Shown here: piece by piece, positions 1,762-58,876 of the stretch | Layout: each line of letters opens with the position of its first letter | Numbering within the stretch: the stretch's first letter is position 1 | Assembly: GCA_037200965.1 (NCBI GenBank) | Contig: JBBCGK010000001.1 | Span: 672,001-736,000, forward strand | Origin: a bacterium | GTDB lineage: Bacteria; Patescibacteriota; Minisyncoccia; Phycocordibacterales; Phycocordibacteraceae | Reading direction: 5' to 3' | DNA length: 64,000 nt | Position numbers and translations under genes: made by a program | Notes under the pieces: model-generated | The model's database searches: none | Told to the model about the DNA's origin: nothing | The model's input: the letters and a program-made list of their open reading frames with translations, nothing else

Positions 1762-1785
1762 AAAAGTTTTAAAATGCAGGGAGCC

Positions 1786-1814
1786 TTGACGGGAGTCAGG
1801 GCTCTTTGTATCAT
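1786..1814 (+). promoter_or_regulatory. sigma70-like promoter: -35 TTGACG (1786-1791), 17-nt spacer, -10 TATCAT (1809-1814)
   Basis: Near-consensus hexamers with optimal spacing, immediately after the rplE stop and ~80 nt upstream of an ORF with a strong SD. Confidence 0.5.
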
Positions 1815-1895
1815 ATATTCGGATACTTCACATTCTCGGATAGTGACGTTAACGGTATCCACGTCGAGCGTCCGATGGCATCAAGGAGATGTGTC

Positions 1896-2309
1896 ATGCG
1901 GTTTGTCTGTGATCTTGAGGATTTGTTCTGGATGAGTAATAGATACGAGCATACTGCCAGCAATGAGATCAGGCAGGCGCTTCTTGCCGGAAAGGATACG
2001 GACGGAACTCCGCGCTGGACGATTCCGGGGGCTGGAATGTTCAATCTTGCCCAAGTCCTCTGGTCGGGCCAAAACTCGGTTGGCCATGAAGAGGACTGCG
2101 CACGAGACCGTATGTTCACCAGTCTCGAGCTCATGCGTCGACTGGGCCACGCCCGTGCACGCTCGCAGGCTGTGTTTTTTCTCGTCATTCTCCGGAGGAT
2201 GGAGCGCGAGAACAGCGACTCCATCGAAATCAATATCCCGTGGACCCGTGCGAAGACGAGGTGCATGTATGTCAAACGGAAACCAAATATCGAATTCGGT
2301 CTGGTATAA
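1896..2309 (+). CDS. hypothetical protein (~137 aa), no recognisable domain
   Basis: ATG at 1896 is preceded by AAGGAGA with 6-7 nt spacing. It lies downstream of the promoter at 1786 and is followed by a GC-rich hairpin at 2317-2344. Confidence 0.45.
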   Translation: MRFVCDLEDLFWMSNRYEHTASNEIRQALLAGKDTDGTPRWTIPGAGMFNLAQVLWSGQNSVGHEEDCARDRMFTSLELMRRLGHARARSQAVFFLVILRRMERENSDSIEINIPWTRAKTRCMYVKRKPNIEFGLV

Positions 2310-2316
2310 CCGGACA

Positions 2317-2344
2317 GGGCGCGGCGGAACTTTCCGCCGCGCCC
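2317..2344 (+). terminator. GC-rich hairpin (13-bp stem GGGCGCGGCGGAA/TTCCGCCGCGCCC); possible terminator without a clear U-tract
   Basis: Perfect inverted repeat directly after the stop at 2309. Confidence 0.35.
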
Positions 2345-2483
2345 ATCGTGTGTATGGGTCACCATTCTATATCAGGTACATACGAGTGAATTTGACGTAC
2401 TAAGTTATACATACCTTTTTTACGAATTAGTCCTGCAAGTGCTAATTTCTGGCAGCAGAATTGTTCCAATATCCTAAAGGAAA

Positions 2484-2511
2484 CCCCGCAAAGCTTGGTT
2501 GCTTTGCGGGG
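2484..2511 (-). terminator. putative intrinsic terminator of the minus-strand two-gene operon (11-bp stem CCCCGCAAAGC/GCTTTGCGGGG, loop TTGGTT)
   Basis: Hairpin ~45 nt downstream (minus-strand sense) of the stop at 2557, followed on the minus strand by UUUCCUUU. Confidence 0.5.
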
Positions 2512-2556
2512 CTCGACCGGAGGTCGATTTTTCAAACAAGGCTTAGTATGTCCGGT

Positions 2557-3348
2557 TCAGGTTTTGGGGTCGATGCTCATCGCGCGCGGTATCGATTTCC
2601 GTTGCCAGTTGTCGATTTTTCGCCTATCAGAACTCCTGCCGATTATGTATAAGACGAGTGAGATGATGCATACGGCCACGCCCGGGCCGAAGGAACCGAT
2701 GTCCAAAGCCTCCCCGGCCCACACACACAGGGCAAGGTATATGAAGCCCGTAGCACCGAGCACGTAGCTGACAGCCGTTAAACCGTTGCTCTCGCTCTCT
2801 TTGCGCCGATACGAGGTTAACAGGGATTCGGCGATCGGGAGTTCGCTTCCCGGTCCTTCATCCCACGCGGCAAGAGGATATACCCGGCCATCGTGAGCTC
2901 GGCCCACGAGCAGGCTCGGCCCGCTCGTGCCGAATGCGCCGGACTCATACTTGGGATACTCGGGAAGAGACTGACTGATCCAGACCTCGATGTCGGCGAA
3001 GCAGTCCAGCCAATTTACCCATTCCAGACCTTCGAGTACTTTGCGGGGGAATTTTTGCCCGTACCATGCTCGATAGGTCGTGCTGTAGGCATAACCATGG
3101 TACGTGTTCACAGTGCGCACTTTGCGGACACACTGCCACCCTTTCTGAGCCGAGAATTTCCCGGGAAGAGAGCATCTCCACTGGCTCAGGGAATTGGGGT
3201 CGAAGGGTTCGAGAAGCGGAACATGCCTACGAATTTCTTCGATCCGGTTAAGCCGAGGCAGCGCCATGAGTGCGTTCCTCGCATCCGCGTTCAGCGTCCG
3301 TCCGTAGGCGGCGACTGCTTCGATTCTTCGGGATTGGTATTCAGCCAT
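2557..3348 (-). CDS. hypothetical protein (~263 aa) with a C-terminal pair of transmembrane helices; no recognisable domain
   Basis: Internal ATG (MAEYQ...) is preceded by AAGGAGGA and overlaps the upstream stop as TGATG, indicating translational coupling. A hydrophobic hairpin (LTAVSYVLGATGFIYLALCVWAG...GVAVCIISLVLYIIG) lies near the C-terminus. Confidence 0.6.
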   Translation of the reverse strand: MAEYQSRRIEAVAAYGRTLNADARNALMALPRLNRIEEIRRHVPLLEPFDPNSLSQWRCSLPGKFSAQKGWQCVRKVRTVNTYHGYAYSTTYRAWYGQKFPRKVLEGLEWVNWLDCFADIEVWISQSLPEYPKYESGAFGTSGPSLLVGRAHDGRVYPLAAWDEGPGSELPIAESLLTSYRRKESESNGLTAVSYVLGATGFIYLALCVWAGEALDIGSFGPGVAVCIISLVLYIIGRSSDRRKIDNWQRKSIPRAMSIDPKT

Positions 3349-3956
3349 CACACGTCCTCCTTGCTCGGAGCCGCGACGAACGCGACCCAGTTGTGCCACG
3401 AGATTTCGGTCGGGACGGAGCCCTGCGAATTCTTGAGGCTGCAGAGGGAGGAATAGAAGTAGTTGATGAGGCCGGCCGGATTGCCGTTGAGCGGTTCCGT
3501 GACGAACGCCACGAAGCTGCCGTCGGGTATGCGCGGGTCGTGCCCGAGATCGTCCGCGAGCCGCGGGCGCTCTGCGAACAATGCGTCTCGATACTCGACC
3601 GGTGCGGGAACGAGGCTGGCCTTCTGGCCGTATTCCTCGATCTGCCCGGGCCTGAGCCGACCGTTTTTGCCCGAATCGCCGAAGCGGACGAGCATGAGGG
3701 TTTTGTCCTCACCGCCGATCGCGATCCTCACCGCGCAGGCCTTGCCGCCTTTCGGCGGGTCGATCCGCGCCGTGGTCGCGATCTCGCTATAGAGCCCGGA
3801 GAGCTCTGCGAGAACACGCTCAAGCCTGCTGCTATGCGCGGGCTTGACCACCGCGGCGAGCAGCTCATTCAGGTCTGCGCCGGTTTGCCCGCGAACGAGC
3901 TCGCCGATCTGACCGAGCGCCCCGAAGAGCACCGTGGCCGTGACAGGTTTTGGCAT
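3348..3956 (-). CDS. hypothetical protein (202 aa), no recognisable domain; first gene of the coupled pair
   Basis: Start ATG is preceded by GAAAGGAAG. Its stop overlaps the start of the downstream gene by 1 nt (ATGA-type overlap). Confidence 0.6.
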   Translation of the reverse strand: MPKPVTATVLFGALGQIGELVRGQTGADLNELLAAVVKPAHSSRLERVLAELSGLYSEIATTARIDPPKGGKACAVRIAIGGEDKTLMLVRFGDSGKNGRLRPGQIEEYGQKASLVPAPVEYRDALFAERPRLADDLGHDPRIPDGSFVAFVTEPLNGNPAGLINYFYSSLCSLKNSQGSVPTEISWHNWVAFVAAPSKEDV

Positions 3957-4191
3957 GACACTTCCTTTCTATGAACCCCTCACTCCTTAGCGAAGCCCCA
4001 GGTTCAACAGCCTTACCTCCACCCGATTGTGGCGGTTTCAGCGCGCAACAGCCCACTTTAGTGAGCCCCTGAGCGCTGAAACCGCCCCTAGCCTTGTTTT
4101 CAAGGGACGTATCTATCTAAGAGTGTATACTATATATCATATCTTGTCAAGTTTTCCGTAATGGTTCAATACCTTGGATGATTCCAGGGTA

Positions 4192-4220
4192 TTGACAGAT
4201 AATACTGTATGTGCTAACGT
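4192..4220 (+). promoter_or_regulatory. sigma70-like promoter: TTGACA, 17-nt spacer, TAACGT; sits in an AT-rich divergent intergenic region
   Basis: Consensus -35 with 17-nt spacing, ~50 nt upstream of the 4273 ORF. The same AT-rich region lies upstream of the minus-strand operon starting at 3956. Confidence 0.4.
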
Positions 4221-4272
4221 TACTTAAGCGTTCGGGCCGCTCTTTTCAGCTCGGAACCAATGGAGGAACATC

Positions 4273-4668
4273 ATGAACAAGATTTATCTGGCTATCATGG
4301 CCGTCATTTCCCTCTCCGGCATCGCCCTGGCCTTCAGCCCCGAGGCGGTGTTCGAGAGCGCTTCCCGGGTTGACCCGGGCGGCACCCTGTCGTTCGCGAA
4401 CTTCTCCTTCTGGACGTGCGTCTGCATCGGGGGCGTCGTTTTCTTCTTCTCCCGTCGCGGATCACAAGGAAAAGAAATCGCGAGGATCGGCTTGCTTCTC
4501 GGAGCCGCGGCCGCGTGCCTTGCGCTCATGTCGCTCACTCACTACTTCGCGTACTGGCATCAGGGCCTCGCGACGATGCTGGGCATCATCTTCTTCGTCT
4601 CCCCGCTGCTCGGCATCGCGATCGCGCTGTCCGACCGACAGCAGACATCGGTTCCGAACGGAGGCTGA
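4273..4668 (+). CDS. small integral membrane protein (131 aa, ~4 TM)
   Basis: GGAGGAACATC-ATG ribosome-binding site; hydrophobic segments throughout. Confidence 0.55.
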   Translation: MNKIYLAIMAVISLSGIALAFSPEAVFESASRVDPGGTLSFANFSFWTCVCIGGVVFFFSRRGSQGKEIARIGLLLGAAAACLALMSLTHYFAYWHQGLATMLGIIFFVSPLLGIAIALSDRQQTSVPNGG

Positions 4669-4779
4669 AGCCTCCGGTCAAGGACTCGGTTCGCACGCAG
4701 GTACGGCCCCACGCAATTCGGCGTGGGGTCTTTTGGATATATTCGACGCCGCCGGATATATATATAGTGTCCTTCCCGT

Positions 4780-5463
4780 TCGAGATATCGGCTGGTACGA
4801 TCAAGGATCCGGCACGTCCTCGGCTTGTGCAATGTCATCAAGCCGTAGTTGCGCTTGAACCAGTCCTCAATCGCAACACCTTCCAAACCCTCGGCGCGGT
4901 GTCTTCCGGCGAAGACACTTGCGAGGCTGGTGATTGAGAAGGCAGGTCACGCGGTCAGCCTGTCGCTGGGACAGCGCTCCGAGTTCCATGTCCTCGGGAA
5001 AGAACCGGCGCAGCTGTTCTCGCATGCACCCCGCTCCCAGGGATGATGGGGACGGGCGAAGTATACCCGGGCATTGGTATCGCGCTCAATGAACTGCCAG
5101 AGCGTGAACCCGGTACCACGATCGTACGTGATGGTATGTGCAGGAAGATCAGGAAGCGCTCCTCGCGCTTCCTGGTGCACCGTGTTCGTTTCGTCGTCAG
5201 ACACGAGCCGCGCCCGCAAGGAACCCGCCTCTTTCGGTCAACACGGGCCAGAAACCTTGCACGGTCGCGTCCGACCGCGGTATGGTCTCGTCGGATATGA
5301 TGCGTCCCTCTTCGGTGATCTGTTCGGGCGGTCAGCGCGCAGAAGCGCGGACAGAAACACCCGCTCGTCGCGTGTCAAGTGATGATGCGTTGAAGGCCCG
5401 AATGATGGATACCATTCGGGCTTGAAGACAGAAGCATTGCGTTTCAAGCTCGGATTTAAGCTA
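4780..5463 (-). pseudogene. decayed IS30-family insertion sequence; the transposase is frameshifted and carries an internal deletion of roughly 300 bp
   Basis: Fragments HHHLTRDERVFLSALLR, ITYDRGTGFTLWQFIERDTNARVYFARPHHPWERG and HKPRTCRILDRTS match the N-terminal, DDE and C-terminal regions of the intact IS30 transposase at 57934-58866, in different frames. The left IR-like sequence GCTTAAATCCGAGCTTGAAACGCAA at 5437-5463 matches the IR of the intact copy. Confidence 0.6.
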
Positions 5464-5616
5464 TGATTTAGCGTTGACGCGGGTTGAACCCCGGGCAAAG
5501 CAGGCGCGGACCTCGTTCTCATCCATTTTCGCGAAGTTCGTGATTTCGGTAAAGTTGTTTAGGCCGTCTGACGAAAGATTATCCCGCTTGGCCGCTCGAC
5601 CAAGCAGGGCTCCTGT

Positions 5617-5645
5617 TTGACGCCCCGTAACCTATTTGATACAGT
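5617..5645 (+). promoter_or_regulatory. sigma70-like promoter: TTGACG, 17-nt spacer, TACAGT; immediately upstream of rpsN
   Basis: Same -35 hexamer and spacing as the promoter at 1786. It is positioned to transcribe rpsN-rpsH-rplF..., which is now separated from rplE by the insertion. Confidence 0.45.
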
Positions 5646-5674
5646 GTCCTGAAGCTCCGCGGAGCTATTTTTGT

Positions 5675-5944
5675 ATGGCTAAAACCTCCCAGCTTGCCCG
5701 GTACGCCAAGAAGGCGAAACTGGTCAAAAAGTACGCCGCCAAGCGCGCGGCTCTTAAGGCTGCCGGTGACTCTGAGGGCCTCCAGAAGCTCCCGCGGAAC
5801 TCCTCCCCGGTTCGTTTGAAGAGCCGCTGCGCCGTTTCCGGCCGCTCCCGCGGGTATCTCCGGGCGTTCGGCCTCTCCCGCATCCAGTTCCGCGAGATGG
5901 CGAGGGAAGGGAAGATTCCGGGCGTAAAGAAGGCGTCGTGGTAA
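5675..5944 (+). CDS. rpsN: 30S ribosomal protein S14 (long, non-zinc form)
   Basis: [20 protein letters not shown]...[51 protein letters not shown] is a canonical S14; the upstream in-frame extension of the ORF is rejected. Confidence 0.9.
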
Positions 5945-40028: not shown

Positions 40029-40154
40029 CCCGCCGGTAGGGGTGGAAGAGAAGTCCGGAATTTCTGAGAAGTTTCTGCAGAAAGTTAGAACCCCCAATCT
40101 GTTAAGACGCGCCAACACGAATGGTTACTTAACTCGGCCTTTCGTGAAATGATG

Positions 40155-40566
40155 TGGAGGTGGGGAGGTTGAACTCCCGTCCGACCTGCGCTTGAGAGCG
40201 AGTCTACGGCGCGTAGTTCCGATTAGGGTTTAAGAGAGGATGCGAGGAAACGGAACGAAACCATTCCCCTCCGATCCCGTTATCTAAGCCGCGGGCCGGG
40301 AGAGCCGCGAACCGATCGCACAGAAGATTCCGCCCGCTGGCCCGGCTGTGCGCACCCGGGACCAGGGACGTCGCTTAGGCGAGGTGAGCCGAAGCTCGAA
40401 CCTTATGCGTAAGCGAACGCGAAGTTCCCTGCGGTAAAGTAAGGAGACTTCACGCCTACAACAGTTTTGTTTGCAGGTAGAGTTTCCCGCCAGATTAAAG
40501 TGATGGGCGGGAGTGCACTGCGCCGCACGTCTCTCAAGGTACAGGCCGTCAAAGCCGGTCACCCCC
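40155..40566 (-). ncRNA. ssrA: tmRNA (ssrA)
   Basis: The minus strand begins GGGGGUGACCGGCUUUGACGG, matching the tmRNA 5' consensus GGGGxUGAxxxGGxUUCGACGG. It ends GGACGGGAGUUCAACCUCCCCACCUCCA, matching E. coli ...GGACGCGGGUUCAACUCCCGCCAGCUCCA. The acceptor stem GGGGGUG/CACCUCC pairs. An internal ORF GCA AAC AAA ... GCA UAA encodes the tag ANKTVVGVKSPYFTAGNFAFAYA. It lies directly downstream of smpB. Confidence 0.7.
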
Positions 40567-44383: not shown

Positions 44384-44455
44384 CCACCCATAGCTCAATG
44401 GTAGAGCGATCGACTTATATTCGATTGGCTCCAGGTTCGAGTCCTGGTGGGTGGA
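44384..44455 (+). tRNA. tRNA-Ile with anticodon UAU (reads AUA)
   Basis: Manually folded: acceptor CCACCCA/TGGGTGG, D-arm GCTC-AATGGTA-GAGC, anticodon stem ATCGA/TCGAT with loop CTTATAT (U33, anticodon TAT, A37), T-arm CCAGG-TTCGAGT-CCTGG, discriminator A. 72 nt. Confidence 0.6.
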
Positions 44456-45280
44456 CTACCGAGGGAATATATCAACGAGTTCGCCCGAACTATAAAAGTC
44501 CGCGGCAAGACCGCCGAAGCTATACGAAACACCGAGAATATCGATGGCCGCGCCGCCTACCTGCGGATTCGCGTTCGGGGTCGAATGCGCGAAGCCGATG
44601 TTGTAAAGCGTCGAGACGACCGCGGGGTTTCCTTCGATAGGGAAGCCCGCCTTCCTCCACTGCGCTTCCACCTCCTTTATATAGAGTCCCGCATAGAGAT
44701 AGCTCCAATAGTGGTCGTGCTGGTCGGTCATGCGCGCGAAGCGTTCGCTTTCTACGTCGGTCGTCCGGAAGTCGAGCGCGTGCCCGAACTCAGGCCCCGG
44801 ATAGTACGGCGAGGCCGGATCCTTCAGATTATTCTCCACTTGGATCGCCGTGTCTTCTTTCATCCCCATCACGCCCCAGGAAAACTGTGTCTGAGAACCC
44901 AGGATCTTGAGCGGATAGAAGAATTGCTTATAAAACTCCCGTTCCGTGAAGAAAAGCCGCAGCTGTTCGGCGACCAAATTCGCGGCGATGAGCCGCGCGG
45001 GAACGCCCGAGTCGGCAGCCGCCCGGTCGAGCGCCGCGGTATCTTTCCGAAGCGCCGCCTCGAGCACCTGCCATTCTTCGGTCTTCTGCCAGGGCGTGCC
45101 ACGCGGATCGCTAGGCGCGAAGTCGGTCGATGTCGCGGAACCGATGAACGCTTCGCGCTGGAGGTCGACGATGCCGCTCGTGTTGGTGAGTCCGAACCGG
45201 ACCGCGAAGTATCCGACGACGAGGAAGAAGCCGATCGCGGCGAATATATAAATGACGATCGAGACGACTTTCTTAAGCAT
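44456..45280 (-). CDS. hypothetical membrane-anchored protein (274 aa)
   Basis: N-terminal TM (VVSIVIYIFAAIGFFLVVGYFAV) followed by a large soluble domain. Confidence 0.5.
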   Translation of the reverse strand: MLKKVVSIVIYIFAAIGFFLVVGYFAVRFGLTNTSGIVDLQREAFIGSATSTDFAPSDPRGTPWQKTEEWQVLEAALRKDTAALDRAAADSGVPARLIAANLVAEQLRLFFTEREFYKQFFYPLKILGSQTQFSWGVMGMKEDTAIQVENNLKDPASPYYPGPEFGHALDFRTTDVESERFARMTDQHDHYWSYLYAGLYIKEVEAQWRKAGFPIEGNPAVVSTLYNIGFAHSTPNANPQVGGAAIDILGVSYSFGGLAADFYSSGELVDIFPR

Positions 45281-57883: not shown

Positions 57884-58876
57884 CCGGGCTTGAATCCGCT
57901 CCTGAAACGCAACACCTGACGTAGGCTCGGTGGATGAGCCATCACCACCTTTCGCGCGGCGAGCGGGTCGCGCTTGCTGCGTTTCTCCGGACAGGAAAGA
58001 GCCGGGCCGAATGCGCCCGTCTTCTTGGCGTCCACCGCTCGACCATCTCGCGGGAACTGCGGCGCGGCGGTACCGAATACAAGGCGGTCGCCGCAGACAA
58101 GGAAGCCGCACGGCTGCGGAGAGAATCAAAACAACGAGCGCGGAAGATCGAGAACGACCATTCACTCGAACGAGAAATCGTTCGACTCCTGAAGAAGGGA
58201 CACTCTCCCGAACAGGTATCAGAAGAGGTGCGGTTCGTCTCGGACGACGCCATATACGATTGGATTGAACGTTCCCGAAAAGATCTCGCGGTACTCCTGC
58301 CCCAGCGCGGCAAGGTGCGCCGCCGGTACGGGAAGAATACGGGCGCGGTCCAAGGATGGACGAAATCCGTACGCAGTATCGCAGAGCGACCGAAGGCGGC
58401 GAACGACCGCTCCCGCATCGGCGACTGGGAAGGAGATACGGTCGCCGGACGGGATCGCGCCCGTCTGCTCGTGCATGTCGACCGGAAGAGCCGGTTCATC
58501 CTGGCCACGATCACGGCAAACGGGACTGCCGATACGATCCATGCCGCTGCGGGAGCCTCGTTCAAGGGACTTCCCGTTCGAACCATCACGTATGACCGCG
58601 GCAGCGAGTTCGCTCTCTGGCGCATGATTGAGCGCGATACCGGCGCAACCGTGTACTTCGCGAACGCGCATCATCCGTGGGAACGGGGCACGAGCGAGAA
58701 CTCGAACGGCCTCCTGCGGCGGTTCTTTCCGAAAGGAACGCCGATCGGCGAGAAGCTCCAGCGGGACGTTGACCGGGCCGTGCGGCTCATCAATCATCGG
58801 CCGAGGAAATGTCTCGGCTGGAAGACGCCCTGCCGCGTGTTTGGCCGCTGTTGCGTTTCAGGCTAGGATTCAAGCC
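57884..58876 (+). mobile_element. intact IS30-family insertion sequence (~990 bp) with ~30-bp imperfect terminal inverted repeats
   Basis: Left IR GGGCTTGAATCCGCTCCTGAAACGCAACAC at 57886-57915; right IR (reverse complement TGGCTTGAATCCTAGCCTGAAACGCAACAG) at 58845-58874. A single transposase ORF lies between them, and its stop falls inside the right IR. Confidence 0.75.
57934..58866 (+). CDS. IS30-family DDE transposase
   Basis: 310 aa; N-terminal HTH (LGVHRSTISRELRRG) and DDE region (GDWEGDTV ... TITYDRGSEF ... HPWERGTSENSNGLLRRFFPKGT). Confidence 0.85.
   Translation: MSHHHLSRGERVALAAFLRTGKSRAECARLLGVHRSTISRELRRGGTEYKAVAADKEAARLRRESKQRARKIENDHSLEREIVRLLKKGHSPEQVSEEVRFVSDDAIYDWIERSRKDLAVLLPQRGKVRRRYGKNTGAVQGWTKSVRSIAERPKAANDRSRIGDWEGDTVAGRDRARLLVHVDRKSRFILATITANGTADTIHAAAGASFKGLPVRTITYDRGSEFALWRMIERDTGATVYFANAHHPWERGTSENSNGLLRRFFPKGTPIGEKLQRDVDRAVRLINHRPRKCLGWKTPCRVFGRCCVSG

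What the first reader, a model, noticed from the sequence alone, without database searches (positions are those of the whole stretch)
2557..3956. Translationally coupled two-gene operon of unknown function with a membrane-hairpin effector-like second protein
A 202-aa soluble protein and a 263-aa protein overlap by 1 nt (GTGTGATGG: the stop of one overlaps the start of the other), and the second start has a perfect AAGGAGGA SD. The second protein ends in two closely spaced TM helices. I recognise no domains in either protein. A soluble sensor/enzyme coupled to a small membrane-inserting partner, located in a mobile island next to IS debris, matches the architecture of many abortive-infection, toxin-antitoxin and anti-phage systems (Kiwa- or Zorya-like logic), but the sequences are not recognisably any of them. 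This is the strongest candidate in the window for an undescribed conflict system.
Basis: partly seen in the sequence, partly recalled or inferred. Interest (0 to 1): 0.8.

Follow-up and report, generated by a model that had tools for sequence, protein, structure and literature searches.

The report
Orphan two-gene cassette in ribosomal-operon hotspot
Two overlapping genes with no relative among about 15 billion known proteins sit in a foreign DNA insert that splits the ribosomal-protein operon of an uncultured Kaiserbacteria-type bacterium; they look real and recently acquired, but their proposed anti-phage or toxin role cannot be tested from sequence.

Summary
Gene A (3348-3956, 202 aa) is soluble and acidic. 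Gene B (2557-3348, 263 aa) is basic and ends in two hydrophobic helices plus a charged tail. They share a TGATG 1-nt overlap, and a perfect AAGGAGGA lies 6 nt before B's ATG. A promoter-like site, a leader hairpin and a terminator-like hairpin bracket the pair.

Neither protein has any relative. Pfam, NCBIfam, PADLOC, PHROGs, PDB, 5.8 billion clustered proteins, a full HMMER pass over 1.84 billion representatives, and phage, plasmid, viral and metagenome DNA returned only self. Single-sequence AlphaFold models were unusable (pLDDT about 35).

The pair lies in a 3.9-kb insert between rplE and rpsN of a Candidatus Kaiserbacteria-type genome, with two more orphan ORFs and a frameshifted IS30 remnant. 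In relatives this junction, and none of nine neighbouring ones, carries variable cargo: ParE, MazF, HicB-like and Cas2-like genes, secreted proteins and orphans. All four island ORFs have Shine-Dalgarno motifs. Native genes almost never do, which argues for foreign origin.

A conflict role (A controlling a membrane-acting B) is plausible at about 0.35 but untested. Interest is modest.

The parts
4122..4150 (-). Promoter-like site for the A-B unit (TTGACA, 17 nt, TACACT)
   Evidence: Consensus scan, 10 of 12 matches. It is a consensus match only, not shown to be active.
4031..4086 (-). Long hairpin in the predicted 5' leader of gene A (27-nt arms, 81% complementary)
   Evidence: Inverted repeat I1. 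The leader fold has z = -5.9 against shuffles. It is not repeated elsewhere in the window and has no Rfam match.
3348..3956 (-). Gene A: 202 aa, soluble, pI 5.95, orphan (WDN10_03945)
   Evidence: ORF and translation. Codon score 0.285 and GC3 0.82 are native-like. SD-like AAAGGAAG lies upstream. No family or homolog found.
3355..3362 (-). AAGGAGGA Shine-Dalgarno motif for gene B, inside the last codons of gene A, 6 nt before B's ATG
   Evidence: Read directly from the sequence. The 8-mer occurs 9 times in the window on both strands.
2557..3348 (-). Gene B: 263 aa, pI 9.04, Trp/Tyr-rich N-terminal domain (about residues 1-188) plus C-terminal TM hairpin, orphan (WDN10_03940)
   Evidence: ORF and translation. 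It is the best of six frames but atypical (score 0.003, GC3 0.655). ORF length P about 0.02-0.04. No family or homolog found.
2629..2781 (-). Part of gene B encoding the two hydrophobic helices (residues about 190-212 and 216-240), followed by the basic tail RSSDRRKIDNWQRKSIPRAMSIDPKT
   Evidence: Kyte-Doolittle windows above 1.5. The low-confidence AF2 model also puts helices at 189-214 and 220-252. The N-in/C-in topology is inferred from basic residues on both flanks.
2473..2511 (-). Terminator-like hairpin after gene B (CCCCGCAAAGC ... GCTTTGCGGGG, then UUUCCUUU)
   Evidence: Fold of 2440-2570 on the minus strand, z = -5.0. A second hairpin plus T-run on the plus strand at 2513-2527 makes this a two-way terminator zone.
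1762..5674 (.). The 3.9-kb insert between rplE (1201-1761) and rpsN (5675-5944) that carries the pair
   Evidence: The gap is 24-66 nt in most relatives. The insert is seen in three assemblies. Insertions are specific to this junction.
4273..4668 (+). Divergent neighbour: 131-aa, four-TM orphan protein (WDN10_03950), a possible third component
   Evidence: ORF. Four hydrophobic segments. Codon score 0.25. SD-like TGGAGGAA. Terminator-like site at 4705-4730. Singleton cluster.
1896..2309 (+). 137-aa orphan ORF (WDN10_03935) at the left end of the insert, convergent with A-B
   Evidence: Gene call in L001. SD-like CAAGGAGA. Weak codon score. Perfect 13-bp palindrome at 2317-2344 just after its stop. 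Singleton cluster.
4867..5522 (-). Frameshifted, truncated IS30-family transposase remnant
   Evidence: NCBIfam transpos_IS30 matches two fragments in different frames: 4947-5219 (E 5.7e-15, profile 166-232) and 4867-5025 (E 4e-4, profile 235-267). Frame translations and 67% nucleotide identity to the intact copy near 58.6 kb.

Best explanation
A and B are a real, recently acquired foreign two-gene cassette. It is carried as cargo in a lineage-wide variable slot between rplE and rpsN of a Candidatus Kaiserbacteria-type (Patescibacteria/CPR) genome.

Shown: one minus-strand unit consisting of a promoter-like site, a leader hairpin, A, an SD, B overlapping A by 1 nt, and a terminator-like hairpin. 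A is a soluble acidic 202-aa protein. B is a basic 263-aa protein with a roughly 188-residue aromatic-rich domain, two adjacent hydrophobic helices and a basic tail.

Inferred: both ends of B face the cytoplasm, so it is anchored by a holin-like hairpin. The overlap makes A and B in a fixed ratio, and they form a complex at the membrane.

Working model (inference only): A holds B inactive or senses a trigger. When released, B's hairpin oligomerises and damages the membrane. This would be an addiction, abortive-infection or exclusion type module of a sequence family not seen before. It may be poorly expressed in the present host, whose own genes do not use SD motifs.
For: Gene reality and operon signals.

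Foreign cargo: the 3.9-kb insert is present in three assemblies and carries an IS30 remnant. All 4 island ORFs have SD-like motifs, against 0 of 12 ribosomal/SecY genes and 3 of 32 other confident ORFs. B's codon usage is atypical.

Slot behaviour: gaps over 200 nt occur in 24 of 76 relatives at L5-S14 and in 0 of 65-80 at each of nine other junctions.

Slot cargo in relatives: ParE (E 7.6e-5), PemK/MazF (4e-9), HicB/UPF0150-like, DUF5678 plus aspartyl protease, three Cas2-like PaaX_M membrane proteins, and many orphans.

The acidic upstream (pI 5.95) and basic downstream (pI 9.04) pairing and the hairpin plus charged tail resemble antitoxin/toxin and holin-type effectors. That comparison rests on general knowledge.
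Against: There is no homolog at all, so there is no co-occurrence, conservation or selection evidence. The three assemblies are essentially identical, so dN/dS is impossible. No PADLOC, Pfam, NCBIfam or PHROGs match appeared even at E up to 1. The structure models were unusable. Both proteins are larger than typical type II toxin-antitoxin partners, and A has no recognisable DNA-binding domain. GC3 jumps from 0.82 to 0.655 exactly at the A/B junction, which argues against long co-evolution. There is no defence system elsewhere in the window. Much slot cargo in relatives is secreted or membrane proteins, not conflict genes. If the host lacks the anti-SD, as about half of Parcubacteria do (PMC9297842), the SD-based coupling may not work here.
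Confidence: 0.35

Rival explanations
1. A lineage-specific accessory membrane complex unrelated to conflict. Examples would be a cell-envelope, attachment, transport-regulating or host-interaction function suited to an episymbiotic CPR cell. B would be a tail-anchored scaffold and A its soluble partner.
For: Many cargo genes in the same slot in relatives are signal-peptide or multi-TM proteins with no conflict domain (L042, L076, L057, L027, L075, L015, L039). The divergent neighbour is a four-TM protein. A and B have no defence-family hit.
Against: Nothing positive points to any such function. The acidic/basic coupled pair, the short hairpin with no external domain and the IS-associated foreign insert are less typical of envelope machinery. 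Singleton distribution argues against a function important to the lineage.
Confidence: 0.3
2. One or both ORFs are not functional genes. They would be chance or decaying open frames in high-GC junk DNA left by IS-mediated insertion, called as genes only because stop codons are rare.
For: The window is full of long shadow ORFs, for example a 437-aa ORF antisense to ribosomal genes. A's length is not significant. B's codon score of 0.003 is no better than the in-phase antisense frame of real genes. The region 1800-2400 has poor coding signal. There are zero homologs among about 15 billion proteins. The host does not use SD.
Against: A's codon score and GC1/2/3 pattern are native-like in exactly this frame. 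B's length has P about 0.02-0.04. The TGATG overlap comes with a perfect, correctly spaced 8-nt SD. Two hydrophobic helices are flanked by basic residues. A promoter-like site and strong terminator-like hairpins bracket the pair precisely.
Confidence: 0.15
3. A remnant of a phage or other mobile element, in which B is a holin-like lysis or superinfection-exclusion protein and A is its regulator (antiholin-like) or an unrelated phage protein.
For: The hairpin of two TM helices with a highly basic C-terminal tail is the class II holin layout (general knowledge). The pair has foreign signatures and IS debris nearby.
Against: B carries a roughly 188-residue N-terminal domain that holins lack. No endolysin, integrase, capsid or other phage gene is in the insert. 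There is no PHROGs hit and no match in phage records or IMG/VR contigs.
Confidence: 0.1
4. A and B are the two halves of a single 465-aa gene broken by a frameshift.
For: The frames abut with a 1-nt overlap.
Against: A perfect SD sits at ideal spacing before an ATG. The concatenated 465-aa query also found nothing. The GC3 discontinuity at the junction suggests two separate units.
Confidence: 0.03

Closest known systems
Type II toxin-antitoxin modules (ParDE, MazEF, HicAB), which occupy the same rplE-rpsN slot in relatives
   Same: Two co-directional, overlapping genes. The upstream product is acidic and the downstream product basic. The location is a variable, horizontally acquired slot. ParE, PemK/MazF and HicB-like genes occupy the identical slot in L067, L046 and L078.
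   Different: There is no sequence match to any toxin or antitoxin family. Both proteins are much larger. The presumed toxin is membrane-anchored rather than a soluble RNase or gyrase poison. No DNA-binding domain is recognisable in A.
Two-TM membrane effectors of abortive-infection systems (SLATT-domain proteins, CBASS Cap14/Cap15-type and Pycsar TM effectors)
   Same: A soluble domain is fused to a pair of closely spaced TM helices and encoded next to a soluble partner. The presumed action is on the membrane.
   Different: There is no SLATT, CBASS or Pycsar profile match. The partner A has no cyclase or nucleotidyltransferase signature. In B the hairpin is C-terminal.
RexA/RexB of phage lambda (soluble sensor plus membrane channel)
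   Different: There is no sequence similarity (PADLOC scan). From general knowledge, RexB is a four-TM protein without a large soluble domain. The gene sizes and layout also differ.
Kiwa (KwaAB) and Zorya (ZorAB plus others)
   Same: Only the generic idea of a membrane component plus a soluble component.
   Different: There is no KwaA, KwaB (DUF4868), ZorA or ZorB (MotAB-like) match. B has two TM helices rather than the multi-TM KwaA or ZorA layout. The further Zorya genes are absent.
Class II holins
   Same: Two TM helices, a predicted N-in/C-in topology, and a highly basic C-terminal tail.
   Different: B is 263 aa with a large N-terminal domain. There is no adjacent endolysin and no phage context.

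Membership tests
Kiwa (KwaA/KwaB) | KwaB with a DUF4868 domain | tested here: not met
   Pfam and PADLOC scans of A and B at E up to 1 gave no hit.
Kiwa (KwaA/KwaB) | KwaA multi-pass (about four TM) membrane protein encoded beside KwaB | tested here: not met
   B has two TM helices at its C-terminus. The neighbouring four-TM ORF (4273-4668) is divergent and has no PADLOC hit.
Zorya | ZorA/ZorB homologous to the MotA/MotB stator, plus ZorC/D or ZorE | tested here: not met
   There are no PADLOC or Pfam hits, and no further genes of that kind are in the insert.
Type II toxin-antitoxin | Toxin belonging to a known toxin superfamily (RelE/ParE, MazF, HicA, VapC, Doc, HipA and others) | tested here: not met
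   No Pfam, NCBIfam or PADLOC match at E up to 1.
Type II toxin-antitoxin | Upstream antitoxin that binds and neutralises the toxin and represses its own promoter | not testable with these tools
   This needs expression and binding experiments. Only the gene order, the overlap and the pI values 5.95 and 9.04 fit.
SLATT / CBASS-Pycsar two-TM effectors | SLATT or Cap14/Cap15/PycTM profile match, with an adjacent nucleotide cyclase | tested here: not met
   B has no profile match, and A has no cyclase or nucleotidyltransferase match.
Class II holin | Two TM helices, N-in/C-in, charged C-terminal tail | tested here: inconclusive
   Hydropathy and flanking charges fit, but the topology is only inferred.
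Class II holin | Small size (under about 150 aa) and an adjacent endolysin in a phage lysis cassette | tested here: not met
   B is 263 aa. A has no lysozyme, amidase or peptidase match. There is no PHROGs or phage-genome match.
Hotspot cargo (variable accessory genes at a fixed core-gene junction) | The same junction is empty in most relatives and filled with unrelated genes in others, while neighbouring junctions are invariant | tested here: met
   L5-S14 gaps over 200 nt occur in 24 of 76 relatives, and in 0 at nine control junctions. The contents are diverse.

The most novel reading that the evidence does not exclude
A and B, perhaps together with the divergent four-TM protein, are a working conflict module of a completely new sequence family. 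A soluble controller would gate a tail-anchored, holin-like membrane killer. The module would be delivered into a CPR-specific cargo slot inside the ribosomal-protein operon, and that slot would act as a miniature defence/addiction island for Kaiserbacteria.
Probability: 0.2. Interest if true: 0.55.

Novelty: new variant of a known kind. Interest (0 to 1): 0.3.

Why it matters
If the pair is functional, it would add a sequence-novel soluble-plus-membrane module to the small set of conflict genes known from CPR bacteria, whose biology is hard to reach. As a strict singleton it has little generality, and it cannot be studied comparatively. The context is more useful than the pair. The rplE-rpsN junction behaves as a specific, recurrent cargo slot in Kaiserbacteria-type genomes, and it splits an operon that is contiguous in most bacteria. 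That gives a defined place to mine for accessory and conflict genes in this lineage. SD motifs may also serve there as a simple marker of foreign genes.

Tried and rejected
1. Domain scans of A and B (Pfam, NCBIfam, PADLOC, PHROGs at E up to 1) gave nothing.

2. PDB sequence search at E up to 10 gave only noise.

3. The word-indexed search of 5.8 billion proteins was run separately for each protein, and again on the concatenated sequence at E up to 10. It returned only self.

4. A full phmmer pass of the concatenated A+B over 1.84 billion representatives returned only self.

5. tblastn against plasmids and phages at E up to 10 gave noise.

6. The search for related loci found no relatives in viral contigs (A, B, TM131, orf137) or in metagenome contigs (A and B only).

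7. phmmer against all ORFs of the 80 related loci fetched, and tblastn against the window, found no relative or paralog.

8. AlphaFold2 on single sequences gave pLDDT 35.6 and 34.6. Foldseek of those models against the PDB gave no hit at E up to 1e-3 and TM-scores of 0.17 or less. These results were discarded as meaningless.

9. Strain comparison for selection failed. The other two assemblies are identical across A and B, and the single mismatch lies in rpsN.

10. Rfam at E up to 1 on the insert gave only a spurious miRNA match.

11. The leader hairpin is not a repeated element in the window.

12. A defence neighbourhood was rejected. PADLOC hits in the window are generic ATPase and helicase similarities (FtsH, ABC and similar).

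13. I considered the plus-strand ORFs 3270-3974 and 2893-3456 as the real genes. I rejected them because their GC1/GC3 pattern and codon scores are those of shadows of A and B.

Full report
**Observation**

The two ORFs exist as described, on the minus strand.
- Gene A is 3348..3956 (ATG, 202 aa). Gene B is 2557..3348 (ATG, 263 aa).
- On the coding strand the junction reads AAGGAGGA-CGTGTG-ATG. A's TGA and B's ATG share one base (position 3348), and the 8-nt SD (3355-3362) lies 6 nt before the ATG.
- AAGGAGGA occurs only 9 times on both strands of the window.
- Hydropathy finds no membrane segment in A (pI 5.95). In B (pI 9.04) it finds two, at about residues 190-212 and 216-240. Basic residues flank them on both sides, and a basic 23-residue tail follows.

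**Are they genes?**

High GC makes long ORFs cheap here. The window has many shadow ORFs, including one of 437 aa antisense to ribosomal genes.
- A's length is not significant (P 0.2-0.9 in Markov simulations). However, its codon log-odds of 0.285 falls inside the range of confident native genes (0.35 +/- 0.08, minimum 0.24). Its GC1/2/3 pattern of 0.66/0.47/0.82 is that of a coding frame.
- B's length is modestly significant (P about 0.02-0.04), and its frame is the best of six. Its codon score is only 0.003 and its GC3 is 0.655, uniformly along the gene. GC3 therefore drops sharply exactly at the A/B junction.
- A promoter-like site (TTGACA-17-TACACT, 4150..4122) lies upstream. A 56-nt leader hairpin sits at 4031-4086 (fold z = -5.9). 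A GC-rich hairpin followed by UUUCCUUU lies immediately after B's stop (2473-2511, z = -5.0).

Together with the SD and the overlap, I rate the pair as real genes at about 0.85.

**Homology**

Neither protein matches anything.
- Pfam, NCBIfam, PADLOC and PHROGs at E up to 1 gave no hits.
- PDB sequences gave only noise.
- The 5.8-billion-protein word-indexed search returned only self. The entries are annotated 'hypothetical protein WDN10_03945 / _03940' on a 960-kb contig of a MAG. A repeat on the concatenated sequence at E up to 10 gave the same result.
- An exhaustive phmmer pass over 1.84 billion representatives returned only self.
- tblastn against plasmid and phage records gave noise.
- Pattern-plus-tblastn scans of IMG/VR and JGI metagenome contigs found no relatives.
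- All four ORFs of the insert are singleton 90% clusters.
- AlphaFold2 without an alignment gave pLDDT 35.6 and 34.6. Foldseek on those models gave no hit at E up to 1e-3. These are uninformative.
- The two other assemblies carrying the locus are identical across A and B, so no selection test is possible.

**Context**

A and B lie in a 3.9-kb insert (1762-5674) that splits the spc ribosomal-protein operon between rplE (1201-1761) and rpsN (5675-5944). The L5 protein places the genome among Candidatus Kaiserbacteria / Paceibacterota (CPR), at 69-83% identity to 80 species representatives. The insert also holds:
- a 137-aa orphan ORF (1896-2309, plus strand);
- a divergent 131-aa four-TM orphan (4273-4668, plus strand);
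- a truncated IS30 transposase remnant, split by a frameshift (NCBIfam transpos_IS30, E 5.7e-15 and 4e-4 in two frames).

An intact IS30-family gene sits at 57934-58866.

**The slot is a hotspot**

Among the relatives, the L5-S14 gap is 24-66 nt in most, but over 200 nt in 24 of 76 (up to 2.3 kb). None of nine other junctions from S17 to SecY exceeds 200 nt in any locus. The cargo differs between even the closest relatives. It includes:
- a ParE toxin with a small upstream ORF;
- a PemK/MazF toxin;
- a HicB/UPF0150-like protein;
- a DUF5678 protein plus an aspartyl protease (in two relatives);
- three Cas2-like (PaaX_M) membrane proteins;
- DnaG zinc-ribbon and methyltransferase fragments;
- several signal-peptide or multi-TM proteins;
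- many ORFs with no family.

rpsN has its own conserved promoter-like element and a short hairpin plus T-run just before its ATG in nearly all relatives and in the window. The junction is therefore a natural transcription boundary, which plausibly explains why insertions are tolerated there. That last step is inference.

**Foreign signature**

- None of the 12 ribosomal/SecY genes has an SD-like motif, and only 3 of 32 other confident ORFs do. That is about the background rate of 8%.
- All four island ORFs have one at proper spacing.
- 13 of 35 cargo ORFs in relatives have one too, several of them strong.
- A published survey found the anti-SD motif in only 48% of Parcubacteria 16S rRNAs (PMC9297842).

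The 'perfect SD' is therefore better read as a mark of acquisition from an SD-using donor than as host-tuned coupling. It may not even function in this host.

**Mechanism**

The gene layout and the membrane hairpin are shown. The following steps are inferred:
- B has an N-in/C-in topology.
- A and B are made in a fixed ratio and form a complex.
- A controls a membrane-damaging B.

This last reading fits several things: the acidic-upstream/basic-downstream pairing, the holin-like hairpin and tail, the foreign and IS-associated insert, and the toxin-antitoxin and Cas2-like cargo found in the same slot elsewhere. Several things count against it. There is no comparative evidence at all. The proteins are large. 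A has no recognisable DNA-binding domain. The GC3 break at the junction is unexplained. The window holds no defence genes. Much slot cargo is secreted or membrane protein rather than conflict genes.

My estimates are:
- conflict-type module: about 0.35;
- other accessory membrane function: about 0.30;
- non-functional or spurious ORFs: about 0.15;
- phage lysis or exclusion remnant: about 0.10;
- a split single gene: about 0.03.

**Comparison with known systems**

The pair works like, at most, a toxin-antitoxin or abortive-infection pair with a two-TM effector. It is not a member of Kiwa, Zorya, RexAB, SLATT/CBASS/Pycsar effectors, any type II toxin family, or the holins. Every sequence-defined feature tested was not met.

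**Verdict**

The mobile context is confirmed and sharpened. The 'undescribed conflict system' remains a reasonable but untested guess about a strict singleton. Interest is modest (0.3). The reusable result is the rplE-rpsN cargo slot.

Noticed in passing
window 1762-5674; loci L003-L082 at the L5-S14 junction: The rplE-rpsN junction is a specific variable cargo slot in Kaiserbacteria-type genomes. 24 of 76 relatives have inserts over 200 nt there, and none has one at nine neighbouring ribosomal-gene junctions. The cargo includes ParE, MazF, HicB-like and Cas2-like genes and many orphans.
   Followed up: yes
window 5617-5674; 60 nt upstream of rpsN in about 67 related loci: There is a conserved rpsN leader: TTGAC-N17-TGATAnnnT promoter-like element, then a 4-5 bp hairpin capped by a YUCG-type loop (GCTCYTCGGAGC), then a T-run directly before the ATG, with no SD. 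Some relatives have different stems (GACGCA/TGCGTC, CGC/GCG, GCCC/GGGC), which looks compensatory. There is no Rfam match in the window. It could be a terminator/promoter overlap or an S14 regulatory leader.
   Followed up: partly
window-wide; start regions of confident genes: Native genes, including 12 of 12 ribosomal/SecY genes, lack Shine-Dalgarno motifs and have A/U-rich leaders. Island and hotspot cargo genes often carry strong ones. This fits the reported loss of the anti-SD in about half of Parcubacteria (PMC9297842).
   Followed up: partly
window 1786-1814: A second promoter-like site (TTGACG-17-TATCAT) lies right after the rplE stop. It resembles the rpsN promoter of relatives (for example L007) and now points into the insert towards the 137-aa orphan ORF.
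   Followed up: no
window 4273-4668 (+) and 1896-2309 (+): Two further singleton orphan ORFs lie in the same insert. One is a four-TM 131-aa protein divergent from A-B, with native-like codon usage. The other is a 137-aa ORF followed by a perfect 13-bp palindrome (2317-2344). Either could belong functionally with A-B.
   Followed up: partly
window 57934-58866 (+): An apparently intact IS30-family transposase (NCBIfam transpos_IS30, E 8e-66). It is about 67% identical at the DNA level to the remnant in the insert, so it is a related but different IS copy.
   Followed up: partly
window 44384-44456 (+): A tRNA-Ile with anticodon TAT (UAU). Most bacteria instead read AUA with a lysidine-modified CAU tRNA (general knowledge).
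   Followed up: no
window 40152-40566 (-): A tmRNA (Rfam 95 bits) with predicted tag peptide GPAGGIFCAIGSRLSRPAA. A SmpB-domain protein is also encoded in the window, though the scan did not report which ORF.
   Followed up: no
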